This document shows, piece after piece, positions 9,629-31,064 of a stretch of 64,000 bases of DNA; within the stretch, counting starts at the first letter, position 1, and each line of letters starts with the position of its first letter. The stretch lies in sequence record OL770310; one strand, given 5' to 3'. The notes under the pieces are model-generated. The model worked only from the letters and a program-made list of their open reading frames with translations. It searched no databases and was not told the origin of the DNA. The position numbers and the translations under genes are program-made. This DNA comes from Escherichia phage PSa2.

Positions 9629-9680
9629 GCCTGCAAACAAATTTCCCCTTATTAAAGTACCTCCTCCAAAAATAAACGCG

Positions 9681-9707
9681 TTAGAATGCGTTACAGAGCG
9701 TTTTAGA
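9681..9707 (+). repeat. 27-bp direct repeat TTAGAATGCGTTACAGAGCGTTTTAGA, copy 2
   Basis: identical to 5603-5629. Confidence 0.6.
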
Positions 9708-9737
9708 GCTATATTAGAGTTATTCACTACGTAGGAA

Positions 9738-9757
9738 TACTGTATAAATATACAGTA
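9738..9757. promoter_or_regulatory. LexA/SOS box TACTGTATAAATATACAGTA
   Basis: 19/20 match to SOS-box consensus; embedded in a ~28-bp element inverted relative to the copy at 6030-6056. Confidence 0.55.
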
Positions 9758-9838
9758 GAATAACCTGTTGATAAGTCTGTTGAAAACGTCTCAAAATCGC
9801 TAGGATTTTGTCAAGTCAAATCGTGCTGTTAATAAACC

Positions 9839-9847
9839 TGTGGATAA
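9839..9847 (-). promoter_or_regulatory. DnaA box (TGTGGATAA on plus)
   Basis: exact reverse complement of TTATCCACA. Confidence 0.45.
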
Positions 9848-9882
9848 CTTAAATAACAGTGTTTCTCACTTCGCTTTGTAAA

Positions 9883-10023
9883 TGCGAGTCATTCTCATTA
9901 TGCGACTCATTCGCATTCCGCCAATCAAATGATAACCATTCTCATTCCTCTTTCTAAACGCGAATCATTCTCATTCGCATTCAACTTCTCAAATGCGAAT
10001 CAATCTCATTATCATTTGCATTT
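9883..10023 (+). repeat. array of about 5 degenerate direct repeats GCGA(A/G)TCATTCTCATT
   Basis: copies near 9883, 9901, 9932, 9960, 9994. Confidence 0.55.
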
Positions 10024-10060
10024 CGGCAGGCAGGGCATTTTCTATTTGCCCTGCGCTTTT

Positions 10061-10663
10061 GTGCAAATCCGACATTTGCCCCCACGGATTACGTGCCAGC
10101 GTGTATGTGCGAATCCGACAATTTTTGGTGGTGTGCAAATCCGATGGGAAATATTTTTATAATGTGCGAATCCGACAATGAATTTTCCTAAAAACTCCAG
10201 CAATCACGAGCGTGGCTCGATTCCTGTGGAATTAGCTAGAATATGTGCAGAACCGACAAGCGTTAAGGTGTGCGAATCCGACAAGATTTTTGTGACTTCG
10301 ATGAGAGGGTGTGTAATTGTGTGAGTTTGGGGAGAAGTGCGAATCCGACGAGGTTTTTGGGAGGAACTATGGAGGGTGCAGCTGTAGTGGTGCTTCAGCA
10401 CCGGTTTGCTGCGTTTTTGGGGATAATGTGGGATGTTTTGGCTAGAATTGAGATTAGTGGAGATAAAGCGAAATTTTTATTAGCAAAATGGGGCAAAATC
10501 GCTTGACAAGTGAAAATTCCTGTGGCTCCAAAAACTCAGGCAATCAAGGGCCTTCGGCCCGAAATAATGCTGCTATTTTCAGGAGAGTATGTGTTCATGA
10601 AAACTTAGGCAATTGTGCAAATCCGACCATAAATTTCTAGAAACACAATGTGCAAATCCGACA
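10061..10663 (+). repeat. array of 9 dispersed direct repeats TGCGAATCCGACA (variants TGCAAATCCGACA, TGCAGAACCGACA)
   Basis: copies near 10061, 10108, 10133, 10164, 10246, 10270, 10338, 10616, 10651, all same orientation, irregular spacing. Confidence 0.65.
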
Positions 10664-10707
10664 GTAATTTCCAGAAATGTGTTTTCAAAAAAATGTTGTC
10701 TAGAAAT

Positions 10708-10779
10708 AACCGCCCTCCCTATAACCGCCCTGTATAGGAAACCGCCCTAGGATATCTATAGTAGGTGAGAAACTGCCCT
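10708..10779 (+). repeat. four direct repeats AACCGCCCT (one AACTGCCCT)
   Basis: copies at 10708, 10723, 10740, 10771. Confidence 0.55.
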
Positions 10780-11197
10780 AGAATGCGTGAGAAACAGATT
10801 TAAAGTTTGATGTAAACTCTAGAGTTAGTGCTCAACTATTCCTAGAAACTTAGGAGTCTAGAGGAAAGTGTTGTGCCATCCTAGCAGATGAGCGGCAACA
10901 GGTGTATCATCTTGAACATAAATATTGCCTTTAAATATTTATAAGGTAAATAAAAGTAAATATACCCCCATTTCATGAGAGTTAGCCCCTCTAGGCGCGT
11001 GCGATTTGATACATCCTCCTGAGTCTCGGGGAGGAAGAACAATTGACGAGAACCTGCAAGCAGAACCGTCATCAAGTGTTTTCCTACGAGGAATGATGTA
11101 AATCTACGGCCTAGAGGTAAAAACAAGTTGATGTTTTTAATCTATGAGATTATTATAACATGCAGCTCAAATAATGTCAAGAAGATTTTATTAACAT

Positions 11198-11584
11198 TTA
11201 TACATCGTGATTGACTTTGAGTATGACTCCCTTCGATGCCATGAAAAGGAATGTTGCTAAGTAAGATGACTCGGAGTTTAGCGCAGAATAATCTACACTT
11301 CCTCTAGGTCTAGTTTCTTGTTTAGTGTCAAGAATTGTTGATATATCAAACTTAACAAAGTTAGCAATCTTTCTAGCTTGCTCGGGATCACGTAAGAGTT
11401 CATAATGCGCTGCATTTAGAATATTAGTGGATTCAATTACATCATCATTAATTATACTTAGATGAACCTGCGCAAGTATCGAGACAATCCCTAGCTTTAA
11501 CTCAGATACAGAAGAATAAGGTGGTTCTACTTTCTTTGTAAGTCTAGGAAGATGATCATATTTACATTGTTTTTGTGGAATCAT
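11198..11584 (-). CDS. hypothetical protein; reading frame stays open upstream to 11917 (possible frameshifted 238-aa gene)
   Basis: 128-aa ORF from ATG 11584; same frame has no stop back to TAA at 11918-11920; ATG at 11927 lies in +1 frame across an A7 run. Confidence 0.4.
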   Translation of the reverse strand: MIPQKQCKYDHLPRLTKKVEPPYSSVSELKLGIVSILAQVHLSIINDDVIESTNILNAAHYELLRDPEQARKIANFVKFDISTILDTKQETRPRGSVDYSALNSESSYLATFLFMASKGVILKVNHDV

Positions 11585-11923
11585 CAGAATGTTGGGATAA
11601 CATTCTAAACATGACTTTGCATTTCCTTCTTTAAAATGTGGGAGTTCTTTATCAGCAAAGACATGGAATGAATCTGCTGAGAATCCTTTAATAGTAGGGT
11701 CAACAGTTTGAATCAGACGACGTAGACTAATGTATGAAGGAGCTAATGTAACTTCTTCTGCATCTTTATTATACTTGGGCTGTCCACTAGCATTAATATA
11801 TGCAGGATAAAACTCTGCACAAAATGCTATTGCATGTGCCTCTAACTCATTAAGCTGAGAAACACATTTTCCATTACAAGCTCTAGCTAATTTAATAATC
11901 TCTGCTAAATTCTTTTTTTATAC

Positions 11924-12232
11924 TCATATATAATCATCCGGTCTGGGTTTAAGTTCTGTTATTGATTTTGCTGAGGGCTCTAACTTAATCCATGTAAATC
12001 CTAGCTGTTCTGATAGGTGAGAGATATTTCTAGGTGTTATCTTTATATCTGGAGGTAATTTAAATACTAGGTCTTTAAGTAACTTCATATCATCTGAACC
12101 AATGAAGAGAATATACTGCATTTCATCTCTTAGTTCATATTCAGATTCACTCAGGGAGCTAACACCAGCAGTAAATTTATTGAGTTGGGCCACTTTGCAG
12201 CGACCCACGGTAAACTGAGTAATTATATCCAT
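11924..12232 (-). CDS. hypothetical protein
   Basis: 102-aa ORF; start overlaps upstream stop, stop overlaps downstream ATG. Confidence 0.5.
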   Translation of the reverse strand: MDIITQFTVGRCKVAQLNKFTAGVSSLSESEYELRDEMQYILFIGSDDMKLLKDLVFKLPPDIKITPRNISHLSEQLGFTWIKLEPSAKSITELKPRPDDYI

Positions 12233-31058: not shown

Positions 31059-31064
31059 AATATT

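What the first reader, a model, noticed from the sequence alone, without database searches (positions are those of the whole stretch)
11198..11927. Unknown gene interrupted at an A7 homopolymer: frameshift, sequencing error or programmed slippage
On the minus strand an ATG at 11927 overlaps the stop of the upstream gene (ATGA coupling) and encodes only MSIKKEFSRDY before a stop. The +1 frame is open for 240 codons from 11917 to 11198 with no in-frame ATG, GTG or TTG until 11584. The two frames meet in an A7 run (T7 on plus, 11913-11919); removing one A or a +1 shift yields a single 238-aa protein MSIKKNLAEIIKLARA... .
Basis: seen in the sequence. Interest (0 to 1): 0.5.

Follow-up and report, generated by a model that had tools for sequence, protein, structure and literature searches.

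The report
Homopolymer sequencing error splits a phage gene
The interrupted gene is real in the deposited phage EPS7 sequence, but the extra A is almost certainly a base-calling error in that 2008 record, and the true gene is an ordinary intact 242-codon early gene of unknown function found in all T5-like phages.

Summary
The window is Escherichia phage EPS7 (CP000917). On the minus strand, an ATG at 11927 overlaps the upstream gene's TGA. An A7 run lies at 11913-11919. Frame 0 stops after MSIKKEFSRDY, and the +1 frame stays open to 11198.

It is not programmed recoding. Every one of 59 sampled related records is one base shorter here (A6 in the four sequences read directly). Relatives encode one intact 241-242 aa protein from the same coupled ATG. 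The repaired EPS7 protein is 100% identical to that of phage STWB21 and matches PHROG 8993 end to end.

The same EPS7 record carries at least seven other single-base indels, mostly in homopolymers, that break virion genes. These include the tape-measure protein pb2 (A7 vs A6), pb4 (T6 vs T5) and the tail tube terminator. Two independent relatives agree against EPS7 at each site. A plaque-forming phage cannot carry all of these, so the record has a systematic indel error problem.

Best reading is a sequencing artefact (about 0.83). A real, recent frameshift in the lab stock is the main rival (about 0.13). Programmed slippage is effectively excluded. The protein's function remains unknown, with no Pfam, PDB or fold match outside T5-like phages. 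Interest is low.

The parts
11198..11927 (-). The full gene as it should read: a 242-aa early protein of the PHROG 8993 family. In this record it carries one surplus base.
   Evidence: Deleting one A gives a 729-nt ORF that is 100% identical in protein to STWB21 and 98.3% to BD13. PHROG 8993 matches at 1-241/242. Family members align from their own residue 1-10.
11913..11919 (-). The A7 homopolymer (T7 on the plus strand) where the frame breaks. Relatives have A6.
   Evidence: Alignment with BD13, STWB21 and faergetype. All 59 sampled non-EPS7 rows are one base shorter across this site.
11924..11927 (-). ATGA overlap: the start codon of this gene (11927-11925) overlaps the stop codon of the upstream gene (11926-11924), which implies translational coupling.
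   Evidence: Sequence. The same 4-nt overlap is annotated in BD13, STWB21, faergetype and BF23.
11892..11894 (-). Premature TAA that ends the 11-aa frame-0 peptide MSIKKEFSRDY as the record stands.
   Evidence: Translation.
11198..11584 (-). The CDS actually annotated in the EPS7 record (AGC_0018, ACB97461.1, 128 aa from an internal Met). This is a truncated mis-annotation caused by the extra base.
   Evidence: Record annotation. The 128-aa entry also appears in the viral structure library as UniProt B2I456.
11924..12232 (-). Upstream 102-aa gene (AGC_0019) to which the gene is coupled.
   Evidence: ORF list and annotations.

Best explanation
The extra A at 11913-11919 is an over-called homopolymer in the deposited EPS7 genome (CP000917 and its RefSeq copy NC_010583). 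It is a sequencing or assembly artefact. In the real phage the run is most likely A6. The gene is then one intact 242-codon ORF, translationally coupled by an ATGA overlap to the upstream 102-codon gene, in the early-gene block just to the right of the left terminal repeat. Its product belongs to a small family restricted to T5-like phages (PHROG 8993) and its function is unknown. What is shown: the anomaly is unique to this record, the family norm is intact, and the same record has many equivalent errors in essential genes. What is inferred: this particular extra base is one of those errors.
For: (1) A7 is unique to EPS7. With a 71-nt query, only the two copies of the EPS7 record reach 100%. 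All 59 other sampled rows span exactly one base less. A6 was read directly in BD13, STWB21 and faergetype.
(2) Relatives annotate one 726-729 nt CDS from the coupled ATG. In 280 of 283 records, a single tblastn place covers at least 80% of the repaired protein.
(3) The EPS7 gene differs from STWB21's by one synonymous substitution plus the extra A, and there is no other lesion.
(4) The record's error profile. EPS7 alone differs by one base from both BD13 and faergetype inside seven virion-gene sites. These are pb2 (A7 on the coding strand; ende has A6 in a single 3711-nt CDS), pb4 (T6 vs T5, the only difference in 601 nt against BSP22A and faergetype), the large tail protein AGC_0146 (C4 vs C5), the minor tail protein (a missing C), the tail tube terminator (T6 vs T5) and the nickase-like ORF (T7 vs T6 and G3 vs G4). 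The receptor-binding protein region is also broken (327 vs 606 open codons), and the fetched CP000917 feature table lists no CDS between 108138 and 110014. EPS7 is a plaque-forming phage, so these cannot all be real.
(5) PHROG 8993 and the exhaustive profile search show that the family is about 219-266 aa and begins at the coupled ATG.
Against: No reads are available, so the run length in the real phage is unverified. Within the 64-kb window this is the only indel that breaks a long ORF, so the error density here is lower than in the late region. The gene is probably dispensable, because other records show it disrupted: GSW6 has a frameshift at another A-run, and P0033 is a fusion with a GIY-YIG-like endonuclease. 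A true loss-of-function mutation would therefore be tolerated. I could not retrieve the original paper to learn the sequencing method.
Confidence: 0.83

Rival explanations
1. A genuine, very recent +1 frameshift mutation (A6 to A7 by replication slippage) fixed in the sequenced EPS7 stock. This would make a non-essential early gene a pseudogene. A trace of full-length product might still arise from RNA polymerase slippage on the A7/T7 run (giving A6 or A9 in the mRNA).
For: A6 runs are natural slippage hotspots. The gene looks dispensable, because GSW6 has an independent frameshift and another phage has a GIY-YIG-like endonuclease fused into it. T5 itself has only a remote relative at this position. 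Zero further lesions relative to STWB21 is compatible with a very recent event.
Against: No other record or assembly carries A7. The same record contains at least seven equivalent single-base indels in virion genes, which must be artefacts. An artefact is therefore the more economical reading for an eighth.
Confidence: 0.13
2. Programmed recoding: the A7 run is a functional slippery site where a +1/-2 ribosomal frameshift or transcriptional slippage produces the full-length protein at a regulated level.
For: Only the raw geometry supports this. A long A run sits exactly where two frames meet, five codons after a coupled start.
Against: The defining feature of programmed sites, conservation of the slippery run and the two-frame layout, is absent. 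All relatives have A6 and one ORF. Distant family members do not keep an A-run at all (N-termini MNIKDKLKEI and MS-KEAIIEI). The shift needed is +1 or -2, whereas an A_AAA_AAA heptamer favours -1, which leads into the third frame. There is no in-frame stop or Shine-Dalgarno arrangement of the prfB type at the site (sequence). The downstream RNA is not unusually structured (z = -1.41; 18 of 200 shuffles fold at least as well).
Confidence: 0.02
3. The annotated 128-aa product from the internal Met at 11584 (AGC_0018) is the real gene, and the upstream 111 open codons are non-coding.
For: It is what the GenBank and RefSeq records annotate.
Against: The upstream 111 codons are conserved as protein in all relatives and in the family profile, with alignments starting at residue 1-10 of the members. 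No relative starts there. No Shine-Dalgarno-like motif precedes the ATG at 11584 (sequence).
Confidence: 0.02

Closest known systems
Homopolymer-length base-calling errors in early phage genome records, which produce split or truncated CDS annotations
   Same: A single extra base in an A/T run. It is unique to one record. Near-identical relatives are intact, and the same record has other such sites in essential genes (pb2, pb4, tail tube terminator).
   Different: Nothing material. The only missing element is read-level proof.
PHROG 8993, hypothetical early proteins of T5-like phages (e.g. BD13_186, STWB21 QTJ63394.1, faergetype_160, SPC35_0016, BF23_00019)
   Same: Full-length sequence match. 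Same position downstream of a roughly 102-115 codon gene with a 4-nt start/stop overlap, in the block to the right of the left terminal repeat. Length about 240 aa.
   Different: The EPS7 copy as deposited has one surplus base. The family has no assigned function, no Pfam domain and no solved or predicted structural relative outside Demerecviridae.
Programmed frameshift or transcriptional slippage sites on A-runs (dnaX A_AAA_AAG -1 frameshift; slippage on long A/T tracts). Named from my own knowledge, not from a tool result.
   Same: A run of A residues at the junction of two reading frames.
   Different: The run is not conserved. The shift direction needed is wrong for a -1 heptamer. There is no stimulatory element, and the two-frame layout is absent from every orthologue.

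Membership tests
Sequencing/assembly homopolymer artefact | The indel lies in a homopolymer and is unique to one record among near-identical relatives | tested here: met
   A7 against a stretch one base shorter in all 59 sampled related rows. Only the two EPS7 records reach 100%.
Sequencing/assembly homopolymer artefact | The same record shows further single-base indels that break genes the organism cannot do without | tested here: met
   pb2, pb4, AGC_0146, the minor tail protein, the tail tube terminator and the nickase-like ORF (two sites) each differ by one base from both BD13 and faergetype.
Sequencing/assembly homopolymer artefact | Reads or resequencing show the shorter run | not testable with these tools
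   No reads are available. The original paper is not held.
Programmed ribosomal frameshift / transcriptional slippage site | The slippery run and the two-frame gene layout are conserved in orthologues | tested here: not met
   Orthologues have A6 and a single ORF. Distant members lack the run.
Programmed ribosomal frameshift / transcriptional slippage site | The slippery motif fits the direction of the shift required | tested here: not met
   A +1 or -2 shift is required. A_AAA_AAA in frame 0 favours -1, which enters the third frame (read from the sequence).
Programmed ribosomal frameshift / transcriptional slippage site | A stimulatory element: a downstream structure or an upstream Shine-Dalgarno-like sequence | tested here: not met
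   The downstream 83 nt fold at -18.5 kcal/mol, z = -1.41, and 18 of 200 shuffles do as well. No SD-like motif or in-frame stop is present at the site.
PHROG 8993 (T5-like phage early protein, unknown function) | Full-length match to the family profile | tested here: met
   E = 4.5e-112, residues 1-241 on profile positions 1-241 of 242, for the repaired protein.
PHROG 8993 (T5-like phage early protein, unknown function) | Conserved genomic position and start/stop overlap with the upstream gene | tested here: met
   Same gene order and the same 4-nt overlap in BD13, STWB21, faergetype and BF23.
True pseudogene | Additional inactivating or non-synonymous changes have accumulated downstream of the lesion | tested here: inconclusive
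   Zero non-synonymous and one synonymous difference from STWB21. The sequences are too close for the test to have power.

The most novel reading that the evidence does not exclude
The A7 run is real in the EPS7 phage, and the gene is still expressed at a low level through RNA polymerase slippage or a +1 ribosomal shift on the run. That would be a recently arisen, unselected example of frameshift rescue in a T5-like phage.
Probability: 0.04. Interest if true: 0.35.

Novelty: not a real feature. Interest (0 to 1): 0.08.

Why it matters
The biology is ordinary: an intact early gene of unknown function. The practical value is curation. The EPS7 reference genome is the type genome of the genus Epseptimavirus. 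It carries at least eight single-base indel discrepancies that truncate or split genes, including pb2, pb4, the receptor-binding protein region and this gene. The truncated products have spread into protein and structure databases, for example the 128-aa UniProt entry B2I456. Anyone scanning this genome for recoding signals or pseudogenes will meet the same false positives.

Tried and rejected
- **IMG/VR pattern scans:** exact scans for both the A7 and the A6 variant found nothing. A variable-gap scan of the metagenome collection also found nothing. No independent environmental copy could therefore be used.
- **Function of the protein:** Pfam gave no hits for the protein. Across 37 family members there were only scattered single-member hits with E of 0.015 or worse. 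A PDB profile search gave nothing better than E = 0.15.
- **T5.018:** at best a remote relative (27% over 96 aa, pairwise E = 0.005).
- **Sequencing method:** the original EPS7 paper could not be read. A literature search for EPS7 with 'frameshift' gave nothing relevant.
- **Protein-level frame-switch scan of the window:** it flagged only a spurious ORF over a tRNA and intergenic stretch near 31059.

Full report
**Identity of the window.** A megablast of 11000-12400 hits Escherichia phage EPS7 (CP000917.1 and its RefSeq copy NC_010583.1) at 100% identity. Window position equals record position minus 35. EPS7 is a T5-like siphovirus and the type of the genus Epseptimavirus.

**Observation.** Reading the minus strand confirms every element of the finding.
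- The ATG lies at 11927-11925.
- The TGA at 11926-11924 ends the upstream 102-aa ORF 11924..12232.
- An A7 run lies at 11919-11913.
- Frame 0 gives MSIKKEFSRDY, then TAA at 11894-11892.
- The +1 frame is open from 11917 to the stop at 11200-11198, which is 239 sense codons.
- That frame has no ATG, GTG or TTG before 11584.

The GenBank record annotates only the 128-aa piece from the internal Met (AGC_0018).

**What relatives show.**
- BD13 (99.4% identical over 1.4 kb), STWB21 (98.6%) and faergetype (90.8%) each annotate one CDS of 726-729 nt. It starts at the same ATG, which overlaps the upstream stop.
- The alignment shows A6 in all three against A7 in EPS7.
- With a 71-nt query centred on the run, only the two copies of the EPS7 record are 100% identical. 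In a 60-row spread over the 94 matching records, all 59 non-EPS7 rows span exactly one base less than the query.
- tblastn with the repaired protein finds 283 records. In 280 of them one place covers at least 80% of the query. The repaired protein is 100% identical to STWB21's.
- At the DNA level the EPS7 gene differs from STWB21's by one synonymous substitution plus the extra A.
- BF23 keeps the same gene order and the same 4-nt overlap.
- PHROG 8993 matches residues 1-241 on 242 profile positions at E = 4.5e-112.
- An exhaustive profile search of 1.84 billion representative proteins finds only 29 clusters. Nearly all are 219-266 aa and align from their own residue 1-10.

The family norm is therefore one intact protein of about 240 aa that begins at the coupled ATG.

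**Programmed recoding is excluded.**
- The run and the two-frame layout are not conserved in close relatives.
- Distant family members do not have an A-run at their N-terminus.
- The shift needed is +1 or -2, while an A_AAA_AAA heptamer in frame 0 favours -1, which leads into the third frame.
- The site has no prfB-like stop or Shine-Dalgarno arrangement.
- The downstream RNA is not unusually structured (z = -1.41).

**Artefact or real mutation.** The deciding evidence comes from the rest of the same record.
- **pb2:** EPS7 annotates pb2, the tape-measure and pore-forming protein, as two overlapping CDSs (AGC_0152 and AGC_0151). Pb4 is preceded by an unannotated 355-nt gap.
- **pb2 junction:** EPS7 has A7 where phage ende has A6, and ende has a single 3711-nt CDS there.
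- **pb4:** EPS7 has T6 where BSP22A and faergetype have T5. This is the only difference in 601 nt, and it shifts the frame after residue 77.
- **Whole late region:** a comparison of the EPS7 late region with BD13, checked site by site against faergetype, finds more cases. EPS7 alone differs by one base in the large tail protein AGC_0146 (C4 vs C5), the minor tail protein (a missing C), the tail tube terminator (T6 vs T5) and the nickase-like ORF (T7 vs T6 and G3 vs G4).
- **Receptor-binding protein:** this gene region is also broken, and the fetched CP000917 feature table lists no CDS between 108138 and 110014.

BD13 and faergetype agree with each other at every one of these sites. EPS7 forms plaques and has a working tail, so these lesions cannot all be real. 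The record therefore has a systematic single-base indel error problem, mainly in A/T homopolymers. The extra A at 11913-11919 has exactly this signature.

Within the window itself it is the only uncompensated indel that breaks a long ORF that is intact in BD13. A protein-level frame-switch scan found nothing else of substance.

I give the artefact reading about 0.83. A real recent frameshift remains possible (about 0.13) because the gene looks dispensable. Phage GSW6 has an independent frameshift at another A-run and is annotated as two overlapping CDSs. One family member, P0033, is a fusion of a GIY-YIG-like N-terminus with the last 74-75 residues of this family.

**Function of the gene.**
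- No Pfam family matches.
- No solved structure matches by sequence.
- A confident AlphaFold model was obtained (pLDDT 90.6, pTM 0.63, from a 37-sequence alignment).
- Foldseek against viral models finds only uncharacterised proteins of T5-like phages.
- T5.018 may be a remote relative.

What can be said is limited. The gene sits in the minus-strand early-gene block immediately to the right of the terminal-repeat and injection-stop region. It is translationally coupled to the gene upstream. It is confined to Demerecviridae.

**Verdict.** Novelty: not a real feature. Interest is low, apart from its value as a curation note for a widely used reference genome.

Noticed in passing
L014 (CP000917 64000-111382): record positions about 84805, 89469, 94400, 98585, 100424, 106151, 106282, 108260-109118: The EPS7 record has at least seven further single-base indels, mostly in homopolymers, that break virion genes: the large tail protein AGC_0146, pb4, pb2, the minor tail protein, the tail tube terminator and the nickase-like ORF. 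The receptor-binding protein region is also broken and has no CDS in the fetched CP000917 feature table. BD13 and faergetype agree against EPS7 at each site. The reference genome needs correction.
   Followed up: yes
window 11152-11180 (minus strand): A perfect sigma-70 consensus promoter, TTGACA-17 nt-TATAAT (12 of 12) with an extended -10 TG. It lies 18 nt downstream of the gene's stop and points toward the terminal-repeat side and a small ORF (AGC_0017, window 10881-11072). It is probably one of the strong T5-type early promoters.
   Followed up: partly
window 9670-10810: A repeat-rich, apparently non-coding stretch. It holds six to eight copies of GTGC(G/A)AATCCGAC-containing units at 10050-10675, four copies of a 41-nt unit at 9859-10010, and inverted repeats at 9897-10031. 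An exact DnaA-box consensus lies at 9839-9847. The position corresponds to the injection stop signal (iss) region annotated in T5.
   Followed up: partly
L009 (Salmonella phage GSW6, OQ362005) 801-1527: The orthologue in GSW6 is also split, by one extra base in or next to an A-run (TTAAAAAAGG where relatives read CAAAGAAAG). It is annotated as two overlapping CDSs. This is either another sequencing error or a second natural disruption of this gene.
   Followed up: partly
protein P0033 (135 aa; source phage contig of 106 kb): A GIY-YIG-like N-terminus (MSLYKVYILANRD...KIGIS...) fused to the last 74-75 residues of this family. Several T5-like records list an endonuclease, homing endonuclease or GIY-YIG nuclease under the match to this gene (SE8, GEC_vB_N5, Lindwurm, DT571/2). 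The locus seems to be a homing-endonuclease insertion site.
   Followed up: no
window 10474, 10687, 25489, 30755 (EPS7 one base longer than BD13); 3884, 35328, 45540, 47006 (EPS7 one base shorter): Isolated one-base homopolymer length differences between EPS7 and BD13 in intergenic stretches or at gene ends. Some may be further base-calling errors in the record, but without a coding frame they cannot be judged.
   Followed up: no
window 11198-11584; UniProt B2I456: The truncated 128-aa annotation from the EPS7 record has spread into UniProt and into the BFVD library of predicted viral structures as if it were a complete protein.
   Followed up: no
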